A DNA stretch of 64,000 nucleotides, from contig QZKO01000014.1 of the NCBI GenBank assembly GCA_003599505.1, positions 7,774 through 71,773 on the forward strand, in the 5' to 3' direction. Below the pieces are notes generated by a model that was not told where the DNA came from, did no database searches, and saw only the letters and a list, made by a program, of their open reading frames with translations. Position 1 is the stretch's first letter. Each line of letters opens with the position of its first letter. The position numbers were made by a program, and so were the translations under genes. Origin of the DNA: Nitrospiraceae bacterium. GTDB lineage: Bacteria; Nitrospirota; Thermodesulfovibrionia; UBA6902. Shown here piece by piece: positions 19,507-55,534 of this stretch.

Positions 19507-20898
19507 ATGAAAGTACTTCTAATAAATCCTTTAACCCTGGAAGACAGTATGGTGAATATCACTCCCAATCTTGGCTTGGGATATCTGGCAACTTCTCTGA
19601 GAAACAACGGGTTTGAAGTGGAAATATGGGATGGTGTCAAGAAGAACATGACGAAACGGGGACTTGAAGAGAGGTTGAAGAAACGCGATTACGATGTTGC
19701 CGGTTTTCAGGTATATACCCGGAGCGTGAAGGAAACTCAAGAAGGACTTGAGAAAGTTAAGGCGCTTGATTCCAGGATCGTTACAGTAGTAGGTGGGCCG
19801 CATCCTTCAGGTGACCCGGAAGGCTCTCTGACTCATCTTAAAACTGATTACGCTTTTCGGGGAGAAGCTGAAATAGGTTTATCCCAATTGTTAAAAAAAA
19901 TTACCGGAAAGGTAAATGAACCATTTGAAAATATCAATAATTTAATCTGGAAAAGCAATGGGAAAATTATATGTAATCCGCTGCAGCCTATTGAAAATCT
20001 GGATGTGGTAGGCATTCCGGCTTGGGATATGATTAACCCTAATGACTATCCCTACGCGCCGATTGGAGCTTTTTCAAAAAAAATGCCTTTAACGAGTATT
20101 TCCACAACGCGTGGTTGTCCCTATCACTGCACTTTTTGCGCGAACAACACGATTATGGGCAGGAAGGTAAGGGCGAGAAGCACAGAAATTGTTTTGGCAG
20201 AAATGGACTTATTGTATAACAAGTATGGAGTTAGAGAATTTCAGATTATTGATGATAATTTTACATCCAAAAAAGCCCTTACTCTGGGGGTGTGCGAAGG
20301 CATTATTAACAGAGGGTGGGATATAGGCCTTTCATTTCCGAACGGGGTGAGACTAAGTACTCTTGATGAAGAAATTCTGCATCTGCTTGAAAAGGCCGGC
20401 TGCTACTCTTTGGGGCTTGGTATAGAATCAGGTTCTCCAAGGACTTTAAAGAATATGAAAAAAGCTCAGTCAGTTGATGAGATAAAAGAAAAAGTTAATC
20501 TAATCCATAATGTTACCAGGATCAGGACCACAGGCTTTTTTATCATCGGCTATCCAACAGAAGAAAAAGAAGACATTTTGCAGACGATCAACCTGTCTAA
20601 GGAACTTCCCATAGACAGGGCGCAGTTTACTATATGCCTTCCAGTTCCCGGAAGCGAAATGACAGAGCAAATGATAAAAGCCGGAAAGCTGAAAGATGTG
20701 GATTTCAGTGACATATCTTTTCAGAATATTGTCCATATACCTGAAAAGATGACATTAAAAGAACTGAGGCGATACCGGATGAAAGCGTATATGGAATTCT
20801 ACCTCAGATTCAGGATAATCTTCGGCTTATTATCAGAAATCAAATCAATTGAACATATGAAATTTATATTCCGAAGAGTAATGAAGTTGTTTTCATAG
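19507..20898 (+). CDS. B12-binding-domain radical SAM enzyme (class B), paralog 1
   Basis: The N-terminal Rossmann-like cobalamin-binding domain begins MKVLLINP. TTRGCPYHCTFC is the CX3CX2C motif. It is paralogous to 43151..44548 and 54107..55534. Confidence 0.8.
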   Translation: MKVLLINPLTLEDSMVNITPNLGLGYLATSLRNNGFEVEIWDGVKKNMTKRGLEERLKKRDYDVAGFQVYTRSVKETQEGLEKVKALDSRIVTVVGGPHPSGDPEGSLTHLKTDYAFRGEAEIGLSQLLKKITGKVNEPFENINNLIWKSNGKIICNPLQPIENLDVVGIPAWDMINPNDYPYAPIGAFSKKMPLTSISTTRGCPYHCTFCANNTIMGRKVRARSTEIVLAEMDLLYNKYGVREFQIIDDNFTSKKALTLGVCEGIINRGWDIGLSFPNGVRLSTLDEEILHLLEKAGCYSLGLGIESGSPRTLKNMKKAQSVDEIKEKVNLIHNVTRIRTTGFFIIGYPTEEKEDILQTINLSKELPIDRAQFTICLPVPGSEMTEQMIKAGKLKDVDFSDISFQNIVHIPEKMTLKELRRYRMKAYMEFYLRFRIIFGLLSEIKSIEHMKFIFRRVMKLFS

Positions 20899-20997
20899 GC
20901 TCATATTCAATCTGAAGACAATGAATAGTTATTTTTTCTTTGAGGCTCCTCAATATATCAAGCATTAATCCGGTGAATTGAACCGTAATCGCAGCAA

Positions 20998-22275
20998 ATG
21001 AACTTGAAACCACTGACAGTTTTACATATAAATAAGCTTCATTACATATTTGGAGGAGCGGATGTAATTTATTTCAGGACGGCCGAAATTCTTGAGAAAA
21101 ACGGCCATAGCTCAGTTTTTTTCGCAATGCGCCACCCGGATAATCTGCCTTGTCACACTGCAGAGTATTTCATGCCTTTGATCGACACTGGCAAGAGATA
21201 TGTAAGTGACTTCGTAAAAGCGTCCTGCAGAAATATATATTCCTTTAAAGCGAGGAAATGCATTTCCAGAATATTAGACAAATATCATATCGACATCGTA
21301 CACATGCATGATATCCACCGCCAGATGTCTCCCTCTATACTTCATGAAATCAAAAAGAGGGAAATCCCTGTGGTGATGACTCTCCATAATTACAAAATGA
21401 TATGCCCTTCTTTTCTTATGATGGCTCATGGAAAGCCGTGCGAGGCGTGTGATCAGGGAAAGTATTTTAATGCCGTTAAGCTGAAGTGCGTTAAGGGGTC
21501 GTTTTTCAGGAGCGCTCTGCTTGCCATTGAGTTATATATGCATCACAAAATTCTTGATGCATATAAAAACGTTAATGTCTTTATTGCTCCGAGTATTTTT
21601 TTAAAGAATAAGCACGAGGAAATGGGATTTCATAAGAATATAGTACATCTTCCGTACCCTCTTGATGTTAAGGGGTTTGATAAAGTCAACCCGGAGGAGA
21701 TTAAAGAAAAAACCGGTGGGCAGCTTACTTTTGTATATTTTGGAAGACTTGAACCTGAGAAAGGGCTTTTTACACTTTTTGAGTCGATTAAAAATATTTC
21801 CTACAATGAAGCAGAGAGCCGGGTAGTATTTAAGATTATTGGTGAAGGTGCAATAAAAGATGAACTGCACGAAATAGCGCTGCGAAACGGGATGCACAAT
21901 GTTGAATTTCTCGGATACTTAACAGGGGAAGATCTTTTTACTGAAATTAGAAAAGCCGATGTCGTGATAATCCCTTCAGAGTGGTATGAAAATTATCCGG
22001 TTTCAGTAATGGAGGCATTTGCTTTGGGTAAACCTGTAATTGGCGCAAGAATCGGAGGAATTCCGGAAATGGTCAAGGATAATGCGACCGGTTTAACCTT
22101 TGAATCCGGCGATCCTTCAGATTTAGGTGAAAAGATTACATACGTCATAAAGAATCCTGGTAAAGCCGCTCTCTGGGGAAGAAATGCACGGGAGTTTATA
22201 GAAAGGGAAGTAAATCCTGAAAAGCATTATCGGCAATTAATGAAAATTTATAATATGGCTATGTCCCACAGATGA
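20998..22275 (+). CDS. Glycosyltransferase family 4 (GT4), paralog C of the 510/1814 pair
   Basis: EWYENYPVSVMEAFALGKPVIGARIGGIPEMV, DIVHMHDIHRQMSPS and CPSFLMMAHGKPCEAC parallel the conserved blocks of the tandem GT4s. Confidence 0.8.
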   Translation: MNLKPLTVLHINKLHYIFGGADVIYFRTAEILEKNGHSSVFFAMRHPDNLPCHTAEYFMPLIDTGKRYVSDFVKASCRNIYSFKARKCISRILDKYHIDIVHMHDIHRQMSPSILHEIKKREIPVVMTLHNYKMICPSFLMMAHGKPCEACDQGKYFNAVKLKCVKGSFFRSALLAIELYMHHKILDAYKNVNVFIAPSIFLKNKHEEMGFHKNIVHLPYPLDVKGFDKVNPEEIKEKTGGQLTFVYFGRLEPEKGLFTLFESIKNISYNEAESRVVFKIIGEGAIKDELHEIALRNGMHNVEFLGYLTGEDLFTEIRKADVVIIPSEWYENYPVSVMEAFALGKPVIGARIGGIPEMVKDNATGLTFESGDPSDLGEKITYVIKNPGKAALWGRNAREFIEREVNPEKHYRQLMKIYNMAMSHR

Positions 22276-22633: not shown

Positions 22634-22646
22634 GTGCCAGGCACAA
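22634..22646 (-). terminator. Candidate small intrinsic terminator for the minus-strand GT2 gene
   Basis: TGTGCC-A-GGCACA is a palindrome of 5-6 bp per arm. It lies about 40 nt past the stop of 22684..23715 and is followed on the minus strand by ATTTTCCTT. It is weak and short. Confidence 0.2.
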
Positions 22647-22683
22647 TAAATGAACGATGTTGGCACAATTACCAGACTTCTTA

Positions 22684-23715
22684 TTAGGAATTATCGTAGT
22701 TTTTATACAGACTCTTGAGATTTGTTTTTACCCCCAATAATGCTCTCAACGATCCAATTCCGGGGGAAACATTTCCAATGAGTAACGATAAAAAAGTTAA
22801 AGGGACTTCTTTTATATGCTCGGAATATTTTATTGATTCGATTACGATTATCGCTGAGTAAAAAATGAGGATAGCTAAATAAAAAAAGAGAAAGGTATTA
22901 GAGAAGAAAGAGATAATTCCACCTGCAATTATAAACAACAGAAAAAACATGGGCAGAAGGAATGAAACCGTATGAAAAGAAATATGTTCCCTGAAAATGT
23001 CTTCTTTGAGCGATGCGAAAACAGTAGAGCCGTACGTGACTCTTTGAAGAAAATAAGGCTTAAATAAAGACCTGTTGTGGTGATAAACGATTACTTTATT
23101 GTTATAAAATATTTTCTTTTTATTGCTGATTATTCTCATGCAAAGCTCTATATCTTCGCCGGTGAACAGGTTTTCATTAAATCCCTTCAACTCTTCTATT
23201 GCCTGTTTATTTACAATAAGATTGCACGAAGGCAGATCGTAGCAGTATCTTGAGTGCGCTATCTTCTTCCTGAATGAATTTGCTCCGGAAACAAAAAAAG
23301 ATTTTAATGAATTCCCAACACATCTCTTATATAAGTTATCATTGGGAGGAGTTATATTTGGCCCGCCGACTGCCCAGATATCAGTGTTTTTCGTAAACGT
23401 CTTTACCGCATTTTCCAGCCAGTCCCTTGTCGGATAAGCATCAGAGTCAATAAAGGCATAAAAATTTCCGGCGGCATTATTTATGCCGATATTTCTTTTG
23501 AACGCGATATTCTTGTTCCCGGTTTCTACTGTCTTTATATTCCTGCTGATTAATTTTTCAGGTAATTCTATCTTGTTATCAGGGAGTAAAATAATCTCAA
23601 AATCGGGATAATTTAAATCAAGACAATGCAGGACACATTCATATACATAAGAATTGAATTCTACAAAAGGTATTATTATTGATACCCTGCTGTTCACCTT
23701 AAAATTTGACTGCAT
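22684..23715 (-). CDS. GT2 family glycosyltransferase with C-terminal TM helices
   Basis: VSIIIPFVEF...IILLPDN is a GT-A N-terminus. Two or three C-terminal hydrophobic helices follow. It overlaps the upstream radical SAM gene by 17 nt. Confidence 0.7.
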   Translation of the reverse strand: MQSNFKVNSRVSIIIPFVEFNSYVYECVLHCLDLNYPDFEIILLPDNKIELPEKLISRNIKTVETGNKNIAFKRNIGINNAAGNFYAFIDSDAYPTRDWLENAVKTFTKNTDIWAVGGPNITPPNDNLYKRCVGNSLKSFFVSGANSFRKKIAHSRYCYDLPSCNLIVNKQAIEELKGFNENLFTGEDIELCMRIISNKKKIFYNNKVIVYHHNRSLFKPYFLQRVTYGSTVFASLKEDIFREHISFHTVSFLLPMFFLLFIIAGGIISFFSNTFLFFYLAILIFYSAIIVIESIKYSEHIKEVPLTFLSLLIGNVSPGIGSLRALLGVKTNLKSLYKNYDNS

Positions 23716-35287: not shown

Positions 35288-35288
35288 A

Positions 35289-37300: not shown

Positions 37301-37303
37301 TCG

Positions 37304-39738: not shown

Positions 39739-39752
39739 CTTTATCCGGAAAT

Positions 39753-40208
39753 CTAACTCTTTGTTTTTGTCGTGTAATTAAAGTTGTTCTTTACGGTTTC
39801 CATGTATTCTTCCCAGCTTCTAATTGATTTCGAAATATCATAATGCGTGTTAGCCAATACCACGCATACAGCATCGCCGGAAAAATCATAGATTCTTATA
39901 AAAATCATCCTGGGGATATAAAGTCCTCGAGTTGCATCATTCAACTCATATATCTCTGAATTAATTCCATCAGACAGGTTTATTTTAAACGAACCGGAAG
40001 AAGCAATAACAATTTGGTCGGTATCAACATGAGCATGTCCACCTCTTGGAGAGGAAATATGGTGCATATAGAAAATTCGTTTTATACTAATCGGAATATC
40101 AAATTCGCTCTCTATTGACGTCAAGGTGCCCCTCGAATCGGTAATAGATGGTAATACGATCCATTTGACATATTTTAAGCTTGGCTTTGAAATCTGTTTT
40201 GGCGACAT
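39753..40208 (-). CDS. FdtA/QdtA/WxcM-like cupin (sugar 3,4-ketoisomerase / epimerase-type)
   Basis: DSRGTL...RIFYMHHISSPRGGHAHVDTDQ...SGSFKINLSDG matches the FdtA-type RG.HAH...G......DG pattern. It is about 150 aa. Confidence 0.55.
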   Translation of the reverse strand: MSPKQISKPSLKYVKWIVLPSITDSRGTLTSIESEFDIPISIKRIFYMHHISSPRGGHAHVDTDQIVIASSGSFKINLSDGINSEIYELNDATRGLYIPRMIFIRIYDFSGDAVCVVLANTHYDISKSIRSWEEYMETVKNNFNYTTKTKS

Positions 40209-42283: not shown

Positions 42284-42997
42284 TTGAATAATAGTTCAGA
42301 TAAGCCATCCATAGCCGTATTTTTCCCTGTATACAAAGATGAGGGCACAGTTGAGAAAGTCGCAATGAAAGCCCTAAGAGTCTTGTCTGATATAGCCTCT
42401 CAGTATAAAGTTATTATTGTTGATGACGGAAGTCCTGACAGGTCAGGAGAAATCGCTGATCGATTGGCAGCAAGATATCCGGAAGTACAATCTGTACATC
42501 ATGATAATAATCTTGGATATGGCGCTGCCCTTAAAACGGGTTTTAAATATTCACTTGGTTATGAGTGGATTTGCTTCACAGACGGGGATGATCAGTATGA
42601 TGTTAACGAATTGTATCATTTATCAAAGTTGTTTCATCACTTTGACCTGATTGTAACGTTCCGTTACTCAAAAATATATGGAACACTAAGGACGTTTATG
42701 TCTTTTGTATATAATTTTGTTATTAGATGGTTATTTAAGTCTCATTTACGTGATCATAACTGTGGATTAAAAGTAATCCGCTCAAATGTTGTTAAAGATA
42801 TGGAGCTAATTTCAAATAGCGCATTTATTGGCGCGGAAATTGTCATTAATGCTATGGTAAGAGGATATCCTATTGGTGAAGCGGGAATAAGGACATATCC
42901 AAGAACCTTCGGCGAGTCGAGTGTTACGTCTGTTAAGAATATAGTCAATAGTATCCTTGATATGCTGAGGGTTTACAAGAAAATATTCAAACAATAA
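42284..42997 (+). CDS. GT2 polyprenyl-phosphate glycosyltransferase (Dpm1-like, soluble)
   Basis: IAVFFPVYKDEGTVE...IIVDDGSPDRSGEI...FTDGDDQY is GT-A with DXD. Confidence 0.7.
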   Translation: MNNSSDKPSIAVFFPVYKDEGTVEKVAMKALRVLSDIASQYKVIIVDDGSPDRSGEIADRLAARYPEVQSVHHDNNLGYGAALKTGFKYSLGYEWICFTDGDDQYDVNELYHLSKLFHHFDLIVTFRYSKIYGTLRTFMSFVYNFVIRWLFKSHLRDHNCGLKVIRSNVVKDMELISNSAFIGAEIVINAMVRGYPIGEAGIRTYPRTFGESSVTSVKNIVNSILDMLRVYKKIFKQ

Positions 42998-43150: not shown

Positions 43151-44548
43151 ATGAAAAATAAAAAAATATTATTAGTCAATCTTCCTTTTGAAAAAATATA
43201 TGAGAAAACATCATTAAAGGGGGTTGCTCCATCTACCCCTCCTTTGGGGCTGGCATGTATTGGCGGAAGTTTATTGCAAAACGGACATGAAGTGAAATTG
43301 TTTGATTTCAATATCTATGGAACGGGAGAATTCGTAAAAATATTGGAAGATTTTGCTCCGGATTTTGTGGGGATAACTTTTGTCACTCCTTTGATTAGAG
43401 AAGCCCAAAAAGTATCAGAGCTTGTTAAAAAAATCAATAGGAAAATTATTGTTATCGGCGGAGGGCCGCATTGTTCTTCTTTCCCCGAATCTTCTGTAAA
43501 AGAAGCATTATTAGATATCGGGGTCATTGGCGAGGGAGATTTTATCATAAATGAGATAGCTTCGGGAAAGGACCTTCAGCAGATAAAAGGCATAGCATAT
43601 AAAAAGGGGGATGAAATAATTACCAATGAGAGAGAAGACTTCATAAAAGACCTGGATTCACTTCCTTTTCCTGCCTACCCGCTTTATGAAAAAGAAAAAT
43701 ATAAAGTGCCCGCTGCAATCGCCCGGGAGAACCCCGTAGCATGGGTTGAAACCTCGAGAGGGTGCGTGTTTGGATGTATTTACTGCAATAAAAGCTGTTT
43801 TGGTAAAACTTTTCGCGTTAAATCCCCGGAAAGGATTGTTGAGGAGTTTGCTGAAGTAAAAAAATTGGGGTTCAGGGAAATTCATTTAACAGATGATGGT
43901 TTTACAACGAATATTAAACGTGCAAAGAGAATATGTGACTTATTGATTGAGTCAAAAGTGAATATTGGCTGGAGTACAATAACCGGTATCCGCGTAGACA
44001 GGGTCGATTTTGAATTGCTGGGCAAAATGCGGCAAGCCGGATGTTACCGGGTATACTTCGGAATCGAGTCAGGGAATCAAGAAATACTTAATAACATAAA
44101 GAAGGGAATAACTTTAGAACAAGTTAGAAAAGCCGTTGAATCGGCCAAAAAAGCAAAACTGGAAGTTGCGGGGTATTTCATGATAGGACTCCCCGGAGAA
44201 ACTGAAAAAACAATGCAGGATACAATCAGGTTTGCAAAATTACTTGATCTGGATCTGGCTAAAATAAGCATCACTATCCCTTTGCCCGCAACGGAAATAT
44301 TTAATGAACTGGATACAAAAGGCCTGATAAAAACTCATGACTGGGAAAAATTTAAATTTTATTCTACCCCTTCAACAATTTATGACCATCAAAACTTATC
44401 CTGGCCGACAATTGAGAAATACTATGCAAAGTTCTACAAGGAGATATACTTAAATCCTAAATTCATACTCAGAAGATTTAAAAACGGTTTAGTGAATAAA
44501 ACATTAATCGATGATTTTAAAATGTTCATACAAATGAAGTGGACTTGA
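43151..44548 (+). CDS. B12-binding-domain radical SAM enzyme (class B), paralog 2
   Basis: MKNKKILLVNLPFEK begins the B12-binding fold. SRGCVFGCIYCNK is CX3CX2C. Confidence 0.8.
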   Translation: MKNKKILLVNLPFEKIYEKTSLKGVAPSTPPLGLACIGGSLLQNGHEVKLFDFNIYGTGEFVKILEDFAPDFVGITFVTPLIREAQKVSELVKKINRKIIVIGGGPHCSSFPESSVKEALLDIGVIGEGDFIINEIASGKDLQQIKGIAYKKGDEIITNEREDFIKDLDSLPFPAYPLYEKEKYKVPAAIARENPVAWVETSRGCVFGCIYCNKSCFGKTFRVKSPERIVEEFAEVKKLGFREIHLTDDGFTTNIKRAKRICDLLIESKVNIGWSTITGIRVDRVDFELLGKMRQAGCYRVYFGIESGNQEILNNIKKGITLEQVRKAVESAKKAKLEVAGYFMIGLPGETEKTMQDTIRFAKLLDLDLAKISITIPLPATEIFNELDTKGLIKTHDWEKFKFYSTPSTIYDHQNLSWPTIEKYYAKFYKEIYLNPKFILRRFKNGLVNKTLIDDFKMFIQMKWT

Positions 44549-44610: not shown

Positions 44611-46170
44611 TCAGCGACTTCGATTTTTCTTTAAATCGCAAAGATAAAAAGAATTGTTTTCAAATTCACACTCAAGCTTGCCCTGAAAATCATCGAATCT
44701 TAAATCAAAATCAATGTATTTCTTTTTGGCGATGACAATATATTTAGCATCAGAATCATATGCTTTATCGGGCGTAAAAGTGAAATGGTCCATCGCAAAA
44801 GATTTTCTGTCGGTATAAAGTGTCATTGCCCTCGGTTTATGAAAAATTATGGCATCGTCCTTGTTTGTATTTTTTTTAATATAGTTAAACATTTCTACAC
44901 TATCAGGCGAATATGGTCCGTCAACTACCTGGCCGCTTTTGTTGAAAATGATGCTCTTATAAGCCGTATGTAACATATAGACAAAGGAAATTAATATTAA
45001 TCCAATACAAAACAAATATGCAGCATTGATATTTGTAAACCTGACCTTATCAGATAAATCTAAAGATAAAGAAATACCTTTAAGTCCTGCGAATAGAAAA
45101 TATATGAAAAATGGGAATATAGGCATGACGTACCAGGGCGCCCTCGGCGGGAAAATAATGACTAAGACCAGGTTAAACAGAACATACCATATATACATAT
45201 AATCATCTTTCCTGTTGCGTATCATTCCTGAAACCACAAAAAATAGCATAATAAGATATAGAATTAAATGGATCTTATCGTAACCCAGGCCGAAGACGCT
45301 GTATTTTACGAACAGATAAGGGAAATACCGTGCCGGTAACACTATATAATATTTAATATTCATAATGATTGAAGATAATCTGATCTCATTAAAAAGTTTA
45401 TTCAAATGCCCGTACTCGCCCCCGGTAATGTCCTCGGATGAAAAAAACCAGACGCTTGCCGCATTGAGAACAAAGAAAATTATATAGGGCATAAACTTGA
45501 TCCTATCTGAAAATATAAAATTTCTGAGAGTGCCCCTATTGTGAAAAAATTGAGCACATAATAAAGTTGGCACAAGTAAAAATCCAAAGGGCCTTGTAAA
45601 GGATGAGAAGAACATAAAAAATCCGAGTAAGAAGTAACTTGTAGATTTGTTGATCCAGATTTTATCTGAAATAATAAATCGTTGAATAAGCAATAAGGTA
45701 GCTAATGAGAAAAACAGATACGGCATATCAGAAGAAATATGGTCCTTGAATTCAAAAAACCATGGATTAAATCCCAGAACTGCCGTCAGCAATAAACTTT
45801 GCAGGTTGTCTAATTTATCCCGTAAGAGTAAAAAAAGTGACAATAAAGATAACGAAAAAAAGAATACAAGATATATTTTCATTGCATGGACGTCTAATCC
45901 GAAGACATGATATACAGGGCTTAATAAAAGGCAAGTGCCCCATTCACCGTCTACAGGCCCAATCCACAACGTTGAATTTTTCACCCTATATTTGTTAATA
46001 GATATAAATTCATCCATTGTACCCTCAGCTATACTCTTTGCTGCACTTATGAATGAAGCAAAATCGTCTCCCCAATCATGTCCATCTGTAAGGCTAACAA
46101 CATTGATGATAAAAACAAATAAGAGGAGCAAGAATAATGCTGCATAAGTTTTTTTATTATCTAAAGCCAT
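44611..46170 (-). CDS. Polytopic membrane protein with periplasmic C-terminal domain (possible GT-C-like transferase)
   Basis: It has about 12 TM helices. The N-terminal loop DGHDWGDDFASFISAAKSIAEG is acidic and aromatic-rich. Confidence 0.4.
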   Translation of the reverse strand: MALDNKKTYAALFLLLLFVFIINVVSLTDGHDWGDDFASFISAAKSIAEGTMDEFISINKYRVKNSTLWIGPVDGEWGTCLLLSPVYHVFGLDVHAMKIYLVFFFSLSLLSLFLLLRDKLDNLQSLLLTAVLGFNPWFFEFKDHISSDMPYLFFSLATLLLIQRFIISDKIWINKSTSYFLLGFFMFFSSFTRPFGFLLVPTLLCAQFFHNRGTLRNFIFSDRIKFMPYIIFFVLNAASVWFFSSEDITGGEYGHLNKLFNEIRLSSIIMNIKYYIVLPARYFPYLFVKYSVFGLGYDKIHLILYLIMLFFVVSGMIRNRKDDYMYIWYVLFNLVLVIIFPPRAPWYVMPIFPFFIYFLFAGLKGISLSLDLSDKVRFTNINAAYLFCIGLILISFVYMLHTAYKSIIFNKSGQVVDGPYSPDSVEMFNYIKKNTNKDDAIIFHKPRAMTLYTDRKSFAMDHFTFTPDKAYDSDAKYIVIAKKKYIDFDLRFDDFQGKLECEFENNSFYLCDLKKNRSR

Positions 46171-48046: not shown

Positions 48047-48055
48047 CGGCGGTTT

Positions 48056-50529: not shown

Positions 50530-51411
50530 TCAAAAAGGGCGTATTCTTGTTTTGAGATGTTCAAACACGCTGAAATCAGGGGCGGGATTTTGATCAAAAA
50601 AAGTAAGGATCGATTCGCTGCGAAAAGGCAGTTTAAATTTTATTTTTTCCAGAATAATCAACAGAAACCATGGGATTTGCCACGGTACTGGTATGAATAG
50701 AACGTTCTTCTTTACCTGACGATCTTTTATTTTGACAAGAAACTGTTTCAACGTGAGAGGTTTTTCATTCACAGCGCATATTGGCTTAACGATAGCTTTA
50801 TTTTTTGAGGCAACTTCTTCTACAAGGGCAAGAAGGTCATCAAGATGAGAAGTATAGACGGTCGGCCTCTTTGAATATAGGATTGGCACAATAGGAAGGA
50901 TTCGAAATAATTTTTCAAAGAACTGTAACGTCCCTCCTCCCTGTCCTCCATACAGTTTATTTTTTTTATCCACATAGATAGTACCCGGGCGGATAACGAC
51001 CCCCCCCTGTTCAAAGGTATTTTGTTCTCCGGCAAGCTTGGCCCGGCCGTACATTGTTCTGCACCCTTCAAACGCGTGCATGCTGGAGATAAACACAATA
51101 AGGCCGACTTTTGCTTTCTTAGCCGCTTCAAGAAGCAGCTTTGTGCCGTTAATGTTGATATCTCTGATTGTATCCGGGTTGTTACATTTAAAATCATATG
51201 CGCAATGAATAAGTAAGTCTACATCAGCCAGAGATGCAGGGTCTATTTTATCACCCAGTGAAAAATGTATGATTTTATCATCGCTATCAGTTCCCCGGTC
51301 TTTTTTCCTTTGCATTTTTATCACGGACCAGCCGGATTCTTTCATTTTTTGAGCGATATGATGACCAAGAAATCCGGTAGCCCCTGTGACAGCGCATGTT
51401 CCTTTAGACAT
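50530..51411 (-). CDS. NAD-dependent epimerase/dehydratase (SDR family)
   Basis: CAVTGATGFLGHHIAQKM is the Rossmann motif. YGRAK is YxxxK. Confidence 0.7.
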   Translation of the reverse strand: MSKGTCAVTGATGFLGHHIAQKMKESGWSVIKMQRKKDRGTDSDDKIIHFSLGDKIDPASLADVDLLIHCAYDFKCNNPDTIRDININGTKLLLEAAKKAKVGLIVFISSMHAFEGCRTMYGRAKLAGEQNTFEQGGVVIRPGTIYVDKKNKLYGGQGGGTLQFFEKLFRILPIVPILYSKRPTVYTSHLDDLLALVEEVASKNKAIVKPICAVNEKPLTLKQFLVKIKDRQVKKNVLFIPVPWQIPWFLLIILEKIKFKLPFRSESILTFFDQNPAPDFSVFEHLKTRIRPF

Positions 51412-53023
51412 TGGGACCTTCCATTGTCTGCTTATCTACTGAGTCCGCGATTCTGCAGGCATTAGCCATGACTGTGAGGGTTAAAGGCGTAGCAGGAATA
51501 GATGGCAGAACAGACGAATCAACTATATGCACGCGTTCACATCCGGAAGGTCTCCCAAGGAGGTCTGTTTGATAGGCATTTGGCGACTGAGACATAGGAA
51601 GTGTAGAACCGATGTGCTGACTGTCTCCAGGTAAAAGTGTTTGAACACCCAGTCCCAATGGTATACCCCCGAGAGCATGACGATGTTTTTTTAGCAAGCG
51701 CAGAATGGATTTCATGATGGCATCGGATTTCGGATTGATTTGTCCTTTTATTTCTCCCATACCTTTGGTCCCGGGTTTATATTCATGGACCTTGAGTGAC
51801 ATTGCTCCGGAGTCGTCTGAATGGAAATACACAAAACATATCATTAACCTCTCAAAGAACCCTGAAAACAATTTTGGGACAAGTTCTGTAATAGAACCCA
51901 GCCGTTGCCTCAGAGGCTCCAACATGAGATCATTGTAGCCGTAATATTGCAAATGAACTATGTTAGGACTAACAGAGGGGTTATCGATCTCCATGTAGAT
52001 CTGATCAGCAGTATGCTCCTTTTCTTTAACACAACCCCTGGAACGATGCCATCTCAGCAGCGGGAAAACGTATTTTTGACTGTCCTTGATAATAAATTCA
52101 TGGTCCGTTAAGTTCAGAGATCGAGCGACAATGCATGTAGTATTGATGACCCCGCAGGCAAGAAATAATCGGCAGCCTTTGAGAATTGATTCGTCCGAGG
52201 AATGAATATCTTTAATATGTATTTCGACCTCCCCATTGTCTTCTGAAAAACGTGTGACAAGCTTACCGGGTAAATAAGTAAAATTATCATCTTTCTGTAA
52301 CTGAGTTAATAAAAAAGCAGAGTTAAAAATAGCGTTATTGGGACAACCATGCATACACAACCCACAAGGGGAACAACCTTTATTATCAAGTGAATACTTT
52401 GACCCAACAGCTAACTTTGCTCTCCCAAAGTAGAGGCCATCATCTGCTAAATCATCCTTGTAAGGTTTAAGACTTTCGTATAAGTCATTTCCCTGTTTGC
52501 CAAGAGGGAAAGAAGGGGGGTATCCTATATTTACAGGAAATATCTCTGACATTTCACCTTTTGGAGAGGCAATATCGATAATTTCTTCCAATAAGGTGTA
52601 ATATGGTTTCAACTCATTGAAAGTTATCGGCCAACCAAGCATTTCTTTCGGAATTATACAGCTTACATTTGCTCCCCACACGGTACTGAAACCGCCTTTT
52701 GCCAAAGAAGACCGGATGACCGCCTTATCATCATTCTCTACGAAAGTATCATCTATACCTTTATACGGAAAATCCGAACCGAATAATGTCTTGGCCGGCT
52801 GAACGTCGCTCTGCTGCCTGTGTTTTTTGCGGAGGAGGTGGATGTCCTTTATCAGTTCCGCTGTATCACGATCTTTACGATATCTGTTTACAAGAGACTG
52901 GGACTCATCTTTCAGGGTAAAACCAACATCCAAGAGAGTTACCTTATAGCCTGCTTTAAGAAGGGTGTAGGCGCAGGCAATTCCAGACGGTCCCGATCCA
53001 ACCACATACATCATGTTATTCAT
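51404..53023 (-). CDS. GMC-family FAD-dependent oxidoreductase
   Basis: The N-terminal YVVGSGPSGIACAYTLLKAGYKVTLLDVG is the FAD-binding GxGxxG motif. The C-terminal ERVHIVDSSVLPSIPATPLTLTVMANACRIAD matches the GMC_oxred_C signature. Confidence 0.65.
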   Translation of the reverse strand: MNNMMYVVGSGPSGIACAYTLLKAGYKVTLLDVGFTLKDESQSLVNRYRKDRDTAELIKDIHLLRKKHRQQSDVQPAKTLFGSDFPYKGIDDTFVENDDKAVIRSSLAKGGFSTVWGANVSCIIPKEMLGWPITFNELKPYYTLLEEIIDIASPKGEMSEIFPVNIGYPPSFPLGKQGNDLYESLKPYKDDLADDGLYFGRAKLAVGSKYSLDNKGCSPCGLCMHGCPNNAIFNSAFLLTQLQKDDNFTYLPGKLVTRFSEDNGEVEIHIKDIHSSDESILKGCRLFLACGVINTTCIVARSLNLTDHEFIIKDSQKYVFPLLRWHRSRGCVKEKEHTADQIYMEIDNPSVSPNIVHLQYYGYNDLMLEPLRQRLGSITELVPKLFSGFFERLMICFVYFHSDDSGAMSLKVHEYKPGTKGMGEIKGQINPKSDAIMKSILRLLKKHRHALGGIPLGLGVQTLLPGDSQHIGSTLPMSQSPNAYQTDLLGRPSGCERVHIVDSSVLPSIPATPLTLTVMANACRIADSVDKQTMEGPNV

Positions 53024-53030
53024 AGTCTTT

Positions 53031-54104
53031 TTATCTTGCCTCGAGAAAAGTGCCGGTAAATTTTGCTACCATACTTTTAGTTGACTTTTCAATTGCAACA
53101 CAAGCTAACAAGAATATCGGGGATAAAATTAATGTGAATATCATACTCTTAGTGTTTCCGTGTGTGATTAATCCAAATTTATCCAATAAATAAAAATAAA
53201 AGAAATGAAATAAATATACCGGATATGAGTAGTTCCCCAATATATTGATTATTTTTTTAAAAGGCAAAACGATGTCATTATTTAACGTACACAGCATAAG
53301 AAGAAAAGTTGATAAGACGAATAAAGGCGCGGCAAAAAGCGCCGAATTATTGAATATCATATTATTAACACGTGTTAAATAAACCATTGACAGGAAAACA
53401 AGAAATGAAATAAAAAGACTTGCATTACCGGACAATAATTTAAATTTATCTTTATTGATGCCGGACAAACAAAACGATAGTGAAAATATAAACAAGTGAC
53501 TGAGGAACATAAAACGATAGACAAAATAAGATCTTGTGATCGGCAGGCCTATTATAACATAGGAAATATGCGTTATAGACATAACAGTTAGTATGATTGT
53601 TAATGTCTTAAGCGGGCCATATTTTTTTATAATTAAAAATAAAAAAGGTGCTATCAGATAGCATTGAAGCAATGATGGAATGAACCAATACCATCGAGGA
53701 GCTTCATAAAATGGAAATGCCAGAAAATTCATAAATGAAGGCAAATCGTAACTGGCTGCACCTTTTGAAATCAAATATACTGTATACAAAACCAAACTGA
53801 CTAAATAGAGCGGATATAACCGGAAGAATCTTTTAAACAGGAATCTCTTAACAGTATTAATATTAAATACGGTATATTTCTCCAACGACTTATATACGCA
53901 GTAGCCGCTCGTTATAAAAAAAAACGCTACTATTCCGTTAGCAAAACCTTCAATTGATCTTGAGTAGTTCCAGATTACATAATGATTCATTACCACAGCT
54001 ATAATGGCAAGTCCTCTCAGGTAAGATATTTTTTCATTTGTGGTTAAATCTGCGTTCATATGCGTTAATGTCTTTTTGCAAAATACCTGCATCAAGACTT
54101 TCAA
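53031..54104 (-). CDS. Acyltransferase family 3 (OatA/WecH-like) integral membrane O-acyltransferase
   Basis: ISYLRGLAIIAVVMNHY is the N-terminal Acyl_transf_3 R-G...H motif. It has about 10 TM helices. Confidence 0.65.
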   Translation of the reverse strand: MKVLMQVFCKKTLTHMNADLTTNEKISYLRGLAIIAVVMNHYVIWNYSRSIEGFANGIVAFFFITSGYCVYKSLEKYTVFNINTVKRFLFKRFFRLYPLYLVSLVLYTVYLISKGAASYDLPSFMNFLAFPFYEAPRWYWFIPSLLQCYLIAPFLFLIIKKYGPLKTLTIILTVMSITHISYVIIGLPITRSYFVYRFMFLSHLFIFSLSFCLSGINKDKFKLLSGNASLFISFLVFLSMVYLTRVNNMIFNNSALFAAPLFVLSTFLLMLCTLNNDIVLPFKKIINILGNYSYPVYLFHFFYFYLLDKFGLITHGNTKSMIFTLILSPIFLLACVAIEKSTKSMVAKFTGTFLEAR

Positions 54105-54106
54105 TC

Positions 54107-55534
54107 TTATTTTTTCTTGTAAAACACCTTCATGTAATGAAGGCTGAAACTTAAGACTTCCTGTACTCTAAGTCCTTCAGATTTTATGTAGACGAGAAAA
54201 TAAATAAACTGAAACCACAGGTTGAATAACGGATTTGGAGGAAGTTTTACGAGTTTTTTTATTAATGGGAGGGTCCAGGGGAAAAGGACGGCAGTCTGGA
54301 AAAACCTTTGAATGTTAAGGAGTTCGTTTATATTATTGTTTTTCATGACCGACCCCTTGTAATAAGAATCATCTATGGAATTAATATCGAAGTCTTTATC
54401 AAGGAACCCCTCTTCCTTGGCATAATCGACAATTTTAGTGCCTGAGTACGGATTATAAACCGAACACCAGGGGTAAGCGGTTTTGATCCTGATATTCAGG
54501 TCGATAGTCTCAAAGGCCTGCTCAACTGTTTCCCCGGGAAGGCCCGTCATGCAGTAGGCCCTGAACTTGATGCCATATTTTGTCAGCAACCCTGCGGTCT
54601 TAATGATCTGATCGTCACTGAGATTTTTTTTCAATATCTCATTTCTCAATTTTTCATTTCCGGATTCCATTCCGAATCTGGCAATACAACAACCGCTTGT
54701 CTTGAGTTCTCTTACCAGTTCTTCGTCCAGCATATCCGCCCTGATTAAACCGATATAAGGCAGATTAATTTTTTCCCTGTAATACCTCAGGAAATCCAGC
54801 GCCCATCTTTTGTTTATGAACATAATGTCCGATATGAAAAAAACCCGCTTAAAATCATATCGGGATTTTACCTGAAGTATTTCTTCGATTATATTTTCTT
54901 TACTTCTGAACCTTGTATATTTGCCCTTTCCCCTATACATTTCTTTCAGTTTGTGATTAAAACAAAAACTGCAGTCGTAGGGACATCCCCGCACGCCGAG
55001 AAAATTCTTTACAGACAGATTTTTGAGGAAGGGATAATTATCATAATAGAGTTCGAGGTCCATAAAAGGTAACTCATCAAGGTTTTCAATCAAGTGGCGG
55101 AGGTCGTTTTTATATATCCTGTCTTTCTGTTTAACCCAAAGATTAAGGATATTGGCAATATCGCTGTTATTATCAAGGGCGTTCATTAAATCCAGCATGG
55201 CATATTCACCCTCTCCGCGACAGATGATATCCACTCCTTCCTCTTCAATAACCTCGGGGAAATATGTAGGATGCACCCCCCCGAAAACTACTTTGATATC
55301 CGGGAATTCCTTTTTAACTTCCCGGCAAACATTTAAAGCCCAATGCTGCATGCCGCTCATAAGTGAAAAACCTATCACATCAGGAATATTTTTCTTCAGG
55401 GCCTTTACAAAACCGGCCGGTTGTGTGTCTATCACCATATTACAATTATGACCATGTTTTTTAAGCACTGCCGATACGTACTGTACCCCCGGGAATTCTG
55501 CTTTAATATTCTGAAAAAAAGTGATCGTGGCCAT
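54107..55534 (-). CDS. B12-binding-domain radical SAM enzyme (class B), paralog 3
   Basis: GVRGCPYDCSFCFNH is CX3CX2C. An N-terminal B12-binding-like domain is present. It shares overall collinearity with 19507 and 43151. Confidence 0.8.
   Translation of the reverse strand: MATITFFQNIKAEFPGVQYVSAVLKKHGHNCNMVIDTQPAGFVKALKKNIPDVIGFSLMSGMQHWALNVCREVKKEFPDIKVVFGGVHPTYFPEVIEEEGVDIICRGEGEYAMLDLMNALDNNSDIANILNLWVKQKDRIYKNDLRHLIENLDELPFMDLELYYDNYPFLKNLSVKNFLGVRGCPYDCSFCFNHKLKEMYRGKGKYTRFRSKENIIEEILQVKSRYDFKRVFFISDIMFINKRWALDFLRYYREKINLPYIGLIRADMLDEELVRELKTSGCCIARFGMESGNEKLRNEILKKNLSDDQIIKTAGLLTKYGIKFRAYCMTGLPGETVEQAFETIDLNIRIKTAYPWCSVYNPYSGTKIVDYAKEEGFLDKDFDINSIDDSYYKGSVMKNNNINELLNIQRFFQTAVLFPWTLPLIKKLVKLPPNPLFNLWFQFIYFLVYIKSEGLRVQEVLSFSLHYMKVFYKKK

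What the first reader, a model, noticed from the sequence alone, without database searches (positions are those of the whole stretch)
19507..55534. Three paralogous B12-binding radical SAM enzymes, each adjacent to a transferase
19507..20898 is next to a GT4, 43151..44548 is next to a Dpm1-like GT2, and 54107..55534 is next to an Acyl_transf_3 O-acyltransferase. All three share the B12-binding N-domain and CX3CX2C core. Class B radical SAM enzymes typically methylate unactivated carbons; GenK and Fom3 are examples in aminoglycoside and fosfomycin pathways. Three copies embedded in a glycan locus hint at C-methylation, or another radical tailoring step, of sugar units in an anaerobe's surface glycan.
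Basis: inference. Interest (0 to 1): 0.6.

Follow-up and report, generated by a model that had tools for sequence, protein, structure and literature searches.

The report
Radical SAM enzymes in lipid-linked glycosylation modules
Three distantly related B12-domain radical SAM enzymes in a Nitrospirota surface-sugar gene cluster each belong to a widespread, uncharacterised family that sits next to membrane sugar transferases using lipid-carried sugars, which suggests (unproven) that they remodel a sugar on its lipid carrier.

Summary
ORFs 19507-20898(+), 43151-44548(+) and 54107-55534(-) all carry a B12-binding domain plus a radical SAM CxxxCxxC core, and they lie next to a GT4, a Dpm1/ArnC-like GT2 and an Acyl_transf_3 protein.

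"Paralogous" holds only at superfamily level. The three are 27-29% identical, and each has its own orthologue group at 50-90% identity.

None reaches a curated family cutoff. Best sequence matches mix non-methylating enzymes (HpnJ, BchE) with methylases (MgmA, Sden_1168, PhpK). The best fold match is the sugar dehydratase AprD4. Chemistry therefore cannot be read from sequence.

The conserved partner in related loci is a GT-C membrane glycosyltransferase (PMT_2 or GT87), often with a small soluble GT2:
- R2 family: 15 of 17 loci
- R1 family: 17 of 19 loci
- Unrelated B12-radical-SAM controls: 0 of 32 loci

Some of these genes overlap the radical SAM gene by 4 nt. R2 relatives occur in Nitrospirota, Elusimicrobia, Planctomycetota, CPR bacteria and DPANN-labelled archaea.

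My best reading is that these are cytoplasmic tailoring enzymes of polyprenyl-phosphate-sugar/GT-C glycosylation modules. C-methylation is the most likely chemistry; ring contraction and dehydration remain open. The glycan link is supported. Substrate and chemistry are inferred.

The parts
19507..20898 (+). R1: B12-binding-domain radical SAM enzyme (463 aa) of its own subfamily.
   Evidence: Pfam PF02310 and PF04055. No NCBIfam cutoff is met; the best hits are BchE 153, ApyD 151 and Sden_1168 148 bits. Orthologues at 58-89% identity are mostly labelled Nitrospirota. The best PDB sequence matches are MgmA (7e-24) and AprD4 (3e-21).
20998..22275 (+). GT4 glycosyltransferase 99 nt downstream of R1.
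   Evidence: Pfam Glycos_transf_1 and Glyco_transf_4. The R1-GT4 order recurs in L093, L094 and L157, but in only 2 of the 19 R1-family loci counted.
18507..19319 (-). Exosortase (XrtB/XrtV-like), transcribed divergently from R1.
   Evidence: Pfam Exosortase_EpsH at 185 bits; NCBIfam XrtB at 196 bits, below its cutoff of 275. The same divergent Xrt-EpsI/R1 arrangement occurs in L006, L093, L094, L096, L100 and L104.
17842..18492 (-). EpsI-family exosortase-associated protein.
   Evidence: Pfam DUF3485/EpsI. The best NCBIfam hit is EpsI type B, below threshold.
13723..16059 (-). PMT_2 GT-C glycosyltransferase (13723-15264) plus a Dpm1/ArnC-like GT2 (15295-16059). This is the GT-C module nearest to R1.
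   Evidence: Pfam PMT_2 and Glycos_transf_2. The best NCBIfam hits for the GT2 are ArnC, PgfS, AglJ and Dol-P-hexose transferase, all below threshold. The same gene set flanks R1 orthologues in L093 and L094.
42284..42997 (+). Small soluble GT2 (237 aa, no TM segment), 153 nt upstream of R2. It is a candidate polyprenyl-phosphate-sugar synthase.
   Evidence: Pfam Glycos_transf_2. The best NCBIfam hits are ArnC, PpgS and Dol-P-hexose transferase, all below cutoff. No TM segment is predicted. A small GT2 is directly adjacent to the R2 relative in 9 of 17 loci, with 4-nt overlaps in L009, L016 and L025.
43151..44548 (+). R2: B12-binding-domain radical SAM enzyme (465 aa).
   Evidence: Pfam domains. 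HpnJ scores 223 bits (cutoff 577.6) and BchE 185 bits. The AF2 model has pLDDT 89. Foldseek finds AprD4 at TM 0.78, then TsrM, MgmA, CysS, TokK and OxsB. Orthologues at 45-91% identity occur in Nitrospirota, Elusimicrobia, Planctomycetota, Falkowbacteria, and Pace-/Nanoarchaeota-labelled MAGs.
44611..46170 (-). Polytopic membrane protein (519 aa, roughly 10 hydrophobic segments), convergent with R2. It is a divergent GT-C (PMT_2-like) glycosyltransferase.
   Evidence: Pfam PMT_2 is below threshold at E 0.013. hhalign against a PMT_2 alignment from the related loci gives 98.6% probability over 413 columns, versus 3.9% and 0.2% for the Wzy and MBOAT controls. TM count.
55827..57710 (-). Polytopic membrane protein (627 aa) upstream of R3 on the same strand. 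It is probably GT-C-like.
   Evidence: About 9 hydrophobic segments. hhalign against PMT_2 gives 95.3% over 224 columns. Pfam PMT_2 is only E 0.35. A homologue lies beside a PMT_2 and a B12-radical-SAM gene in L042.
54107..55534 (-). R3: B12-binding-domain radical SAM enzyme (475 aa) with a hydrophobic, aromatic-rich C-terminus.
   Evidence: Pfam domains. HpnJ scores 128 bits and ApyD 115 bits, both far below cutoff. PDB sequence matches are AprD4 (2e-14) and MgmA (6e-10). Relatives at 43-81% identity occur in MAGs labelled Nitrospirota, Omnitrophota, Deltaproteobacteria and Ignavibacteriae, in Tenacibaculum retecalamus, and in 'bacterium SCSIO 12741'. C-terminal hydrophobicity.
50530..54104 (-). 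Tightly packed genes downstream of R3: Acyl_transf_3 (53031-54104), a GMC-like FAD oxidoreductase (51404-53023) and an SDR (50530-51411).
   Evidence: Pfam hits. The gene ends are 2 nt apart (R3/AT3), 7 nt apart (AT3/GMC) and overlapping by 8 nt (GMC/SDR), judged from the coordinates, which suggests one operon.

Best explanation
R1, R2 and R3 are three separate subfamilies of class-B-type radical SAM enzymes (N-terminal cobalamin-type Rossmann domain followed by a radical SAM barrel). I propose that they act as cytoplasmic sugar-tailoring enzymes inside GT-C-dependent glycosylation modules of a large exosortase-linked surface-glycan locus.

Proposed flow, clearest for R2:
1. The small soluble Dpm1/ArnC-like GT2 loads a monosaccharide from a nucleotide sugar onto polyprenyl phosphate.
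2. The radical SAM enzyme cleaves SAM reductively, abstracts a hydrogen from an unactivated sugar carbon of that lipid-linked sugar (or of its NDP precursor), and installs a modification. Cobalamin-mediated C-methylation is the most probable chemistry.
3. The modified polyprenyl-phosphate sugar is flipped across the membrane.
4. The adjacent GT-C enzyme transfers it to the glycan outside the cytoplasm.

Shown: domain content, fold, subfamily separation, and conserved gene neighbourhood. Inferred: the substrate (lipid-linked versus NDP-linked), cobalamin use, and the chemistry.
For: Domains and motif are confirmed. The R2 model is confident (pLDDT 89, pTM 0.88) and matches every solved cobalamin radical SAM enzyme of this architecture (TsrM, MgmA, CysS, TokK, OxsB) as well as AprD4.

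The two most conserved N-domain motifs of R2, GGPH and GEGD, align to GGPH and GEGE of TokK, whose structure holds cobalamin. R1 and R3 carry the corresponding GGxH and GE[AG]E motifs.

Neighbourhood counts:
- 15 of 17 R2-family loci have a GT2 and/or a GT-C within two genes.
- 17 of 19 R1-family loci do, and 15 of the 19 have a GT-C.
- 0 of 32 loci of unrelated B12-radical-SAM genes do.
- Three further R1-locus neighbours in L105, L107 and L109, two of them directly adjacent to the R1 gene, are GT-C-like by hhalign at 95-97%.

Four-nucleotide overlaps between GT2 and radical SAM genes, or PMT_2 and radical SAM genes, occur in L009, L016, L025, L022 and L024.

The association is not simply an inherited cassette. 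R2 is 72% identical between the window and L009, yet the adjacent GT2s are only 20% identical with E 0.17.

In the window, R2 lies between a GT2 and a GT-C (98.6% by hhalign). R3 lies behind a GT-C-like gene (95.3%).

R3 relatives sit beside GT87, PMT_2, YfhO or GT9 genes in five of the six other R3-family loci examined.

Radical SAM enzymes need cytoplasmic SAM and reductant, so they must act before the sugar is flipped (established knowledge).

Modification of a sugar while it is on polyprenyl phosphate has precedent. ArnD and DprE1/DprE2 are cited from my own knowledge. PMC11127046 was found and only its abstract was read; it reports three-component systems as a common pathway for extracytoplasmic addition of pentofuranose sugars. 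That these systems include a polyprenyl-phosphate-sugar epimerisation step is my own recollection.

Radical SAM enzymes acting on lipid-anchored hexoses also have precedent in HpnJ and Cds (PMC13459092). C-methylation is the activity found in every functionally characterised group of this superfamily (PMC12931638).
Against: No curated family cutoff is reached, so no function transfers by homology.

The top HMM hits, HpnJ and BchE, are not methylases. The best structural match, AprD4, binds no cobalamin and dehydrates a sugar diol (PMC12931638).

No small GtrA-type flippase ORF was found in the window's intergenic gaps.

One R3 relative (L173, 52% identity) has no glycan genes nearby.

In L091 the R3 relative directly follows NDP-sugar pathway genes, which fits an NDP-sugar substrate as well as a lipid-linked one.

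R2 orthologues occur in CPR and DPANN genomes, which generally lack cobalamin synthesis (my own knowledge, not tested here). That is awkward for an obligate cobalamin enzyme unless the cofactor is salvaged.

The neighbour classes were assigned with HMMs I built from these loci themselves. Many R1-family loci come from closely related organisms, so the counts are not fully independent.
Confidence: 0.5

Rival explanations
1. HpnJ/Cds-like rearrangement. The enzymes use the 5'-deoxyadenosyl radical to contract or recyclise a lipid-anchored hexose or hexosamine into a carbocyclic (cyclitol-type) unit, not to methylate it. The GT-C then transfers this carba-sugar.
For: HpnJ is the best-scoring curated family for R2 (223 bits, near full length) and for R3 (128 bits). 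HpnJ follows a GT2 (HpnI) and a deacetylase (HpnK) in its own pathway, and it acts on a lipid-linked glucosamine. Cds does the analogous step on a glucose-bearing archaeal lipid (PMC13459092). A GT2 plus Polysacc_deac_1 pair lies in the R3-relative locus L172, and a Polysacc_deac_1 gene in the R2-relative loci L004 and L005.
Against: Scores are well below the HpnJ cutoff of 577.6: 223, 146 and 128 bits. HpnJ co-clusters with the methylases Fom3 and MoeK5 in published networks, so proximity to HpnJ does not indicate chemistry (PMC9204698). The HpnJ reaction has never been reconstituted (PMC13459092). I know of no carbocyclic sugar transferred by a GT-C enzyme.
Confidence: 0.17
2. AprD4-like dehydratase. 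The N-domain does not bind cobalamin. The enzyme dehydrates a sugar diol by radical chemistry, and a neighbouring SDR reduces the product, giving a deoxy sugar.
For: AprD4 is the top Foldseek hit for R2 (TM 0.78/0.79, E 2e-26). It is also the top PDB sequence hit for R3. AprD4 acts on a sugar and needs the reductase AprD3 (my own knowledge). SDR genes lie next to R2 relatives in L009, L015 and L017-L019. An SDR lies in the R3 operon at 50530-51411. This reading would remove the cobalamin problem in CPR and DPANN hosts.
Against: The phmmer alignments to AprD4 cover only the radical SAM core (R2 residues 164-393), whereas those to TokK and MgmA extend into the N-domain. PF02310 matches at 65-75 bits, and the GGxH and GEG[ED] motifs are conserved. 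The AprD4 NCBIfam model scores only 63-107 bits against a cutoff of 500. No SDR lies next to R2 in the window.
Confidence: 0.13
3. Not a sugar enzyme. The enzymes might modify a lipid, such as the polyprenyl carrier or a membrane lipid. R1 in particular might modify a protein or peptide, such as the PEP-CTERM substrates of the adjacent exosortase.
For: R1 is divergently paired with the exosortase and EpsI in the window and in at least six related loci. ApyD (a RiPP enzyme) and the ladderane-type lipid radical SAM family are among the better NCBIfam hits. Many members of this large sequence group act on lipids or peptides (PMC12931638, PMC13459092). The R3 relative in L173 has no glycan context.
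Against: R1-family members keep a GT-C neighbour even in loci where no exosortase is visible, such as L099, L103, L105-L109 and L111. I looked for no precursor-peptide gene, and none stood out. The coupling to GT2 and GT-C genes spans bacteria and archaea-labelled MAGs that lack exosortases.
Confidence: 0.1

Closest known systems
HpnI / HpnK / HpnJ (hopanoid cyclitol-ether side-chain pathway)
   Same: A GT2 glycosylates a lipid, and a B12-domain-type radical SAM enzyme then remodels the lipid-anchored sugar. HpnJ is the best-scoring curated model for R2 and R3 (PMC13459092).
   Different: Scores are far below the family cutoff: 223 and 128 bits against 577.6. The window carries no squalene-hopene cyclase or other core hopanoid gene; the only hopanoid-related hit is a weak, sub-threshold match of the SDR at 50530-51411 to HpnA, the hopanoid-associated sugar epimerase. 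Here the presumed carrier is polyprenyl phosphate, and the product would be passed to a GT-C rather than remaining a lipid head group.
Three-component extracytoplasmic glycosylation systems (polyprenyl-phosphate-sugar synthase, flippase, GT-C), e.g. ArnC/ArnD/ArnEF/ArnT, GtrA/B/V, and the pentofuranose systems of PMC11127046
   Same: A small Dpm1/ArnC-like GT2 and a PMT_2-type GT-C flank R2. In the Arn pathway (ArnD) and the DprE1/DprE2 system, the sugar is chemically altered while it sits on the lipid carrier (my own knowledge). PMC11127046 was read only as an abstract.
   Different: None of the papers returned by my three searches combining radical SAM with GT-C, polyprenyl-phosphate, ArnT or exosortase terms mentions a radical SAM component. 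No GtrA-type flippase was found in the window.
Sugar C-methylating class B radical SAM enzymes: GenK, GenD1, Fms7, MoeK5
   Same: Same superfamily and domain order. These enzymes methylate unactivated sugar carbons (PMC9204698, PMC4340712). From my own recollection, MoeK5 acts on a sugar of a phosphoglycolipid.
   Different: They belong to antibiotic pathways of actinomycetes. The only related curated model (KedN5-type) scores 62-72 bits against a cutoff of 700.
AprD4 (radical SAM 1,2-diol dehydratase of apramycin biosynthesis, PDB 6FD2)
   Same: Best structural neighbour of the R2 model (TM 0.78). It acts on a sugar and has the same two-domain layout.
   Different: AprD4 binds no cobalamin (PMC12931638). 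Sequence similarity is confined to the radical SAM core. The NCBIfam AprD4 model is far from its cutoff.
MgmA/QCMT (methyl-coenzyme M reductase glutamine C-methyltransferase, PDB 9CCB)
   Same: Best PDB sequence match for R1 and R2 (7e-24 and 2e-29). It has a similar length of about 450 aa and is a proven cobalamin-dependent radical C-methylase (PMC11796369, PMC12931638).
   Different: Its substrate is a protein. The NCBIfam model TIGR04014 scores 68-156 bits against a cutoff of 360.

Membership tests
Class B (cobalamin-dependent) radical SAM enzymes | CxxxCxxC motif in a radical SAM (partial TIM barrel) domain | tested here: met
   PF04055 scores 75-98 bits in all three. The cysteines are aligned and invariant within and between the subfamilies.
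Class B (cobalamin-dependent) radical SAM enzymes | N-terminal Rossmann-type cobalamin-binding domain preceding the radical SAM domain | tested here: met
   PF02310 scores 65-75 bits against a cutoff of 32. The AF2 model of R2 aligns over its full length with TsrM, MgmA, CysS, TokK and OxsB. R2's GGPH and GEGD motifs align to GGPH and GEGE of TokK.
Class B (cobalamin-dependent) radical SAM enzymes | Actual binding of cobalamin and its use in catalysis | not testable with these tools
   AprD4 shows that the fold alone is not sufficient (PMC12931638). The position aligned with the lower-axial Trp76 of TokK is Pro80/Leu81 in R2, which is hydrophobic. This is only a hint.
HpnJ (TIGR03471) | Score at or above the curated cutoff of 577.6 bits | tested here: not met
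   R2 scores 223 bits, R1 146 and R3 128.
HpnJ (TIGR03471) | Location among hopanoid biosynthesis genes (shc, hpnH, hpnI, hpnK) | tested here: not met
   No such genes appear among the window ORFs scanned with Pfam. There is only a weak HpnA-like hit for the SDR at 50530-51411.
BchE (TIGR02026) | Score at or above the curated cutoff of 481 bits | tested here: not met
   Scores are 153, 185 and 99 bits. The 'anaerobic Mg-protoporphyrin cyclase' labels on homologues are automatic JGI names.
AprD4 family diol dehydratase (NF033070) | Score at or above the curated cutoff of 500 bits | tested here: not met
   Scores are 83, 107 and 64 bits, even though AprD4 is the best fold match for R2.
Three-component (polyprenyl-phosphate-sugar / GT-C) glycosylation system | Dpm1/ArnC/GtrB-like GT2 that makes a polyprenyl-phosphate sugar | tested here: inconclusive
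   The GT2 domain is certain. The best NCBIfam hits for 42284-42997 are ArnC, PpgS and Dol-P-hexose transferase, all far below cutoff. Its small size and lack of TM segments fit this class, but activity is unproven.
Three-component (polyprenyl-phosphate-sugar / GT-C) glycosylation system | GT-C fold glycosyltransferase encoded nearby | tested here: met
   For 44611-46170, hhalign gives 98.6% probability over 413 columns against PMT_2 proteins, with negative controls at 4% or less. Bona fide Pfam PMT_2 genes lie beside R2 and R1 relatives.
Three-component (polyprenyl-phosphate-sugar / GT-C) glycosylation system | Small GtrA/ArnEF-type flippase | tested here: not met
   The window's intergenic gaps hold no 70-150 aa multi-TM ORF except a 93-aa two-TM ORF at 58037-58318. 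A flippase could lie elsewhere or belong to another type.

The most novel reading that the evidence does not exclude
These subfamilies define an undescribed 'four-component' glycosylation pathway. In it, a B12-domain radical SAM enzyme performs radical chemistry (C-methylation, ring contraction or deoxygenation) on a monosaccharide while it is attached to polyprenyl phosphate, between the Dpm1-like synthase and the GT-C transferase. The pathway would be spread by gene transfer among anaerobic bacteria, CPR bacteria and DPANN archaea. It would put unusual C-modified or carbocyclic sugars on their surfaces.
Probability: 0.35. Interest if true: 0.75.

Novelty: new variant of a known kind. Interest (0 to 1): 0.55.

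Why it matters
The largest sequence group of B12-domain radical SAM enzymes has no assigned functions or structures (PMC12931638). R1 alone has 7,120 relatives at E <= 1e-30 among 50%-identity cluster representatives.

A reproducible genomic partner (small GT2 plus GT-C) supplies a concrete candidate substrate, the polyprenyl-phosphate sugar made by the neighbouring GT2. It also gives a short operon of two or three genes that can be expressed and assayed.

If the idea is right, it adds radical chemistry to the known ways of diversifying surface glycans at the lipid-carrier stage. It would also explain part of the cell-surface biology of uncultivated groups (CPR, DPANN, Nitrospirota, Omnitrophota), where these genes are common.

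Tried and rejected
1. Exact-sequence lookup of R2 found nothing. The source was identified instead through the 100%-identical database entries labelled Nitrospiraceae MAG.

2. I suspected a fourth B12-radical-SAM gene at the window's left edge, because L006 and L007 carry a 918-aa gene call combining B12-binding, Radical_SAM and GT4 domains, and its GT4 half is 60% identical to window ORF 504-1817. In the window, however, the GT4 stands alone. The truncated upstream ORF (1-504) has no radical SAM or other Pfam signal. I could not retrieve the full fusion sequence, and the representative search did not surface it.

3. Long 'B12rSAM' ORFs in other loci (L039, L030, L156, L139) were checked for fused domains. 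The extensions carry no Pfam domain and may be artefacts of my permissive ORF starts.

4. Literature searches combining radical SAM or B12-binding with exosortase, with polyprenyl phosphate and GT-C, and with ArnT returned no relevant paper. A fourth search for 'B12-dependent radical SAM' with surface-polysaccharide terms required only two of six terms, and none of the papers listed contained the radical SAM term, so it was uninformative. The one apparent hit concerned nitrogenase paralogues.

5. A proper phylogeny against GenK, Fom3, TsrM, HpnP and BchE was not possible, because those sequences could not be imported. NCBIfam model scores and PDB matches served as a proxy.

6. Rfam found nothing in the window.

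7. Amphipathic or hydrophobic C-termini hint at peripheral membrane binding: R1 has muH 0.62 at its last 18 residues, and R3 has an aromatic-rich stretch at 431-452. I regard this as too weak to use as evidence.

Full report
**Observation**

The three ORFs are real and lie at the stated coordinates. I call them R1 (19507-20898, +, 463 aa), R2 (43151-44548, +, 465 aa) and R3 (54107-55534, -, 475 aa).

Each matches Pfam B12-binding (PF02310) at 65-75 bits against a cutoff of 32. Each also matches Radical_SAM (PF04055) at 75-98 bits against a cutoff of 29.5. The CxxxCxxC cysteines align.

- a GT4 at 20998-22275
- a 237-aa GT2 at 42284-42997
- an Acyl_transf_3 protein at 53031-54104

**Source organism**

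Database entries 100% identical to all three proteins are labelled 'MAG: Nitrospiraceae bacterium' and lie on a 147-kb contig.

**Are they paralogues?**

Only in the sense of shared superfamily. Pairwise BLASTP gives:

| Pair | Identity | Bits |
|---|---|---|
| R1-R2 | 28% | 185 |
| R1-R3 | 27% | 105 |
| R2-R3 | 29% | 129 |

Each protein has a dense series of orthologues at 50-90% identity in other organisms. A search of 1.8 billion 50%-identity cluster representatives with R1 found at least 150 foreign clusters scoring 280 bits or more. It found 7,120 clusters at E <= 1e-30. The three are therefore members of three old subfamilies, not local duplicates.

**What family are they?**

None reaches the curated cutoff of any NCBIfam model.

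| Protein | Best NCBIfam hits (bits) |
|---|---|
| R1 | BchE 153, ApyD 151, Sden_1168 P-methylase 148, HpnJ 146 |
| R2 | HpnJ 223 (cutoff 577.6), BchE 185, Sden_1168 162, MgmA 156, PhpK 146 |
| R3 | HpnJ 128, ApyD 115, PhpK 100, BchE 99 |

Against solved structures by sequence, MgmA/QCMT (9CCB, a proven cobalamin C-methylase) is best for R1 and R2. AprD4 (6FD2, a cobalamin-free sugar diol dehydratase) is best for R3.

An AlphaFold model of R2, built on 14 orthologues, is confident (pLDDT 89, pTM 0.88). Its Foldseek hits run from AprD4 (TM 0.78) through TsrM, MgmA, CysS, TokK and OxsB, all at E < 1e-18.

The architecture is therefore that of the N-terminal-B12-domain class. The GGPH and GEGD motifs of R2's N-domain align to GGPH and GEGE of TokK, which was solved with cobalamin. 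R1 and R3 carry the corresponding GGxH and GE[AG]E motifs.

Two reviews explain why chemistry cannot be read from this placement:
- Non-methylating members lie in the same large sequence group as methylases, with 'no clear structural features' to separate them (PMC12931638).
- Fom3, MoeK5 and HpnJ co-cluster (PMC9204698).

**Surroundings in the window**

The whole 64 kb is a glycan locus.

Polymer assembly and export:
- an exosortase with EpsI (17842-19319), divergent from R1
- a Wzy_C protein

Nucleotide-sugar pathway:
- an NDP-hexose 2,3-dehydratase
- two FdtA-like cupins
- two DegT aminotransferases
- a GFO/MocA reductase

Tailoring and acylation:
- several class I methyltransferases
- an MBOAT/AlgX-like pair

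Glycosyltransferases:
- four GT4s
- at least five Dpm1/ArnC-like GT2s
- many polytopic membrane proteins

Two of the Pfam-less membrane proteins flank the radical SAM genes:
- 44611-46170(-), convergent with R2, matches an alignment of PMT_2 proteins at 98.6% hhalign probability over 413 columns.
- 55827-57710(-), upstream of R3, matches at 95.3%.

Wzy and MBOAT controls give 3.9% and 0.2%.

R3, Acyl_transf_3, a GMC-like FAD oxidoreductase and an SDR are packed with gaps of 2 and 7 nt and an 8-nt overlap, judged from the coordinates.

Two further radical SAM genes of the SPASM type lie beside glycosyltransferases, at 8324-9331 and 23699-24799.

**Related loci**

*R2 family.* The scan of species-representative genomes plus exact-protein look-ups returned relatives in MAGs labelled Elusimicrobia, Planctomycetota, Falkowbacteria (CPR), Pace-, Nano- and Woesearchaeota (DPANN) and others.

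In a MAG whose R2 homologue carries a Pacearchaeota label, the order is PMT_2, GT2 (237 aa), radical SAM, with a 4-nt GT2/radical SAM overlap, inside a locus containing STT3. In the Falkowbacteria MAG the order is GT2, radical SAM, SDR, B12-radical SAM, PMT_2.

*Neighbour classification.* I classified neighbours with HMMs built from the window's proteins and from proteins of the related loci that carried Pfam annotations.

| Group | Loci | GT2 and/or GT-C within two genes | Other counts |
|---|---|---|---|
| R2 family | 17 | 15 | small GT2 directly adjacent in 9 |
| R1 family | 19 | 17 | GT-C in 15; GT4 in 2 |
| Unrelated B12-radical SAM genes from the same scan | 32 | 0 | |

Three more R1-locus neighbours with no class, in L105, L107 and L109, are GT-C-like by hhalign at 95-97%; those in L107 and L109 are directly adjacent to the R1 gene.

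*Not a co-inherited cassette.* R2 is 72% identical between the window and L009, while the adjacent GT2s are only 20% identical with E 0.17.

*R3 family.* Six other loci were examined.

| Locus / organism | Context of the R3 relative |
|---|---|
| Tenacibaculum retecalamus | GT87 gene overlaps its start |
| 'bacterium SCSIO 12741' | GT87 gene overlaps its start |
| Omnitrophota contig | GT9, SPASM radical SAM, GT2-methyltransferase fusion, split transketolase, YfhO |
| L091 | follows four NDP-sugar pathway genes; precedes Wzx, GT2s and YfhO |
| L172 | several PMT_2 genes and a GT2 plus Polysacc_deac_1 pair |
| L173 | no glycan context |

Acyl_transf_3 does not recur in any of them.

**Mechanism**

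Shown:
- domain content and fold
- three distinct subfamilies
- conserved, sometimes translationally coupled, neighbourhood with small GT2 and GT-C genes across very distant lineages

Inferred: radical SAM chemistry needs cytoplasmic SAM and a reductant, whereas GT-C enzymes act outside the cytoplasm on polyprenyl-phosphate sugars. The radical SAM step must therefore come before flipping. It would act either on the polyprenyl-phosphate sugar made by the neighbouring GT2 or on its NDP precursor.

Two kinds of precedent favour the carrier-linked stage. They do not prove it.
- Sugars are edited on the carrier by ArnD and DprE1/E2 (my own knowledge). PMC11127046, of which I read only the abstract, reports three-component systems as a common route for adding pentofuranose sugars outside the cytoplasm.
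- Radical SAM enzymes act on lipid-anchored hexoses in the cases of HpnJ and Cds (PMC13459092).

As for chemistry, C-methylation is the most common activity of this superfamily. The N-domain looks intact. The position aligned to TokK's lower-axial Trp76 is Pro80/Leu81 in R2, which is hydrophobic like the radical methylases (PMC12931638). This last point is weak.

I rate the parts of the model as follows:
- glycan-tailoring role: about 0.75
- carrier-linked substrate: about 0.4
- methylation: about 0.4
- combined statement: 0.5

**Rivals**

1. HpnJ/Cds-like ring contraction to a carbocycle (0.17).
2. AprD4-like dehydration with an SDR partner, cobalamin-independent (0.13). This would fit the CPR and DPANN hosts, which generally cannot make cobalamin (my own knowledge).
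3. A non-sugar substrate (0.1), either a lipid or a PEP-CTERM protein. This applies above all to R1, which is paired with the exosortase.

Evidence for and against each is listed in the structured fields.

**Comparison with known systems and novelty**

The enzymes are new, uncharacterised subfamilies of a known superfamily. The gene module (small GT2, B12-domain radical SAM, GT-C) resembles a three-component glycosylation system with an added radical SAM editing step.

Three targeted full-text searches returned no paper connecting radical SAM enzymes with exosortase loci, polyprenyl-phosphate sugars, GT-C enzymes or ArnT. [quoted passage not shown] The held library lacks many subscription papers, so this absence is not proof.

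I classify the finding as a new variant of a known kind, with moderate interest (0.55). The function itself remains inferred.

**Limits**

- Neighbour classes rest on HMMs I built, not on Pfam for every gene.
- R1-family loci are phylogenetically clustered.
- Taxon labels of MAGs may be wrong.
- No phylogeny with characterised enzymes could be built.
- Cobalamin genes of the genome could not be examined.

Noticed in passing
window 8324-9331(+) with 9380-10489(+); window 23699-24799(-) with 22684-23715(-): Two more radical SAM genes, of the SPASM type with no B12 domain, each sit beside a glycosyltransferase. One lies 48 nt upstream of a GT4 with a DUF1972 domain. The other overlaps a GT2 whose best NCBIfam hit is the mycofactocin glycosyltransferase MftF (101 bits, cutoff 280). 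The first pair is conserved at 74% and 65% identity in L006 and L007. The window therefore carries five radical SAM genes in one glycan locus.
   Followed up: partly
L006:1-1252 and L007:1-1252 (related Nitrospirota-type contigs): A 918-aa gene call combines B12-binding, Radical_SAM and GT4 domains in two independent assemblies. Its GT4 half is 60% identical to window ORF 504-1817, which stands alone in the window. If the fusion is real, it links a B12-radical SAM enzyme physically to a GT4. The full sequence could not be retrieved.
   Followed up: partly
window 6554-8227, 13723-15264, 30307-32328, 32476-33717, 33749-35332, 44611-46170, 55827-57710: Seven polytopic membrane proteins in 64 kb are GT-C or GT-C-like: two match Pfam PMT_2, one matches GT87, and four are seen only by hhalign at 95-99%. 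At least five Dpm1/ArnC/PgfS-like GT2s accompany them (15295-16059, 41064-42026, 42284-42997, 61101-62063, 28104-30305). This is an unusually high density of carrier-dependent glycosylation modules.
   Followed up: partly
window 50530-53023(-): A GMC-like FAD oxidoreductase (539 aa) overlaps an SDR (293 aa) directly downstream of R3 and Acyl_transf_3. An oxidase-reductase pair recalls the DprE1/DprE2 logic of epimerising a lipid-linked sugar, although the FAD enzyme belongs to a different family.
   Followed up: no
window 43151-44548 versus L009:8004-9395, and the adjacent GT2 genes: R2 is 72% identical to the homologue in L009. That homologue's protein entry is labelled Pacearchaeota, while the L009 genome record is titled only 'bacterium'. 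The neighbouring 237-aa GT2s are essentially unrelated (20% identity, E 0.17). This suggests the radical SAM gene moves between hosts on its own and lands next to non-orthologous GT2s.
   Followed up: partly
window 62064-64000: The last 1.9 kb of the window has no ORF of 150 aa or more and no Rfam match at gathering thresholds. Its nature is unknown.
   Followed up: partly
window 36191-40208(-) and 16139-17685(-): Two deoxy-amino-sugar gene sets are present. The first comprises an NDP-hexose 2,3-dehydratase, an FdtA-like isomerase, a GFO/MocA reductase and a DegT aminotransferase. The second pairs a DegT aminotransferase with a 146-aa cupin ORF (17245-17685) that looks FdtA-like. The locus probably makes 3-amino and 2,6-dideoxy hexoses.
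   Followed up: no
window 46616-49222(+): An MBOAT gene is followed by an AlgX-like SGNH-domain protein. This is the arrangement used for O-acetylation of alginate-type exopolysaccharides.
   Followed up: no
L090:10001-11754 (Omnitrophota contig carrying an R3 relative): A split transketolase pair (N- and C-terminal halves) lies inside the glycan locus, next to a GT2-methyltransferase fusion and a YfhO gene. This hints at synthesis of a branched-chain (two-carbon) sugar.
   Followed up: no
L089 (bacterium SCSIO 12741), L028, L038, L158, L162, L169: Some glycan-type loci carry four to six B12-domain radical SAM genes in a row, interleaved with methyltransferases, GT9, GT87 and SPASM radical SAM genes.
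   Followed up: no
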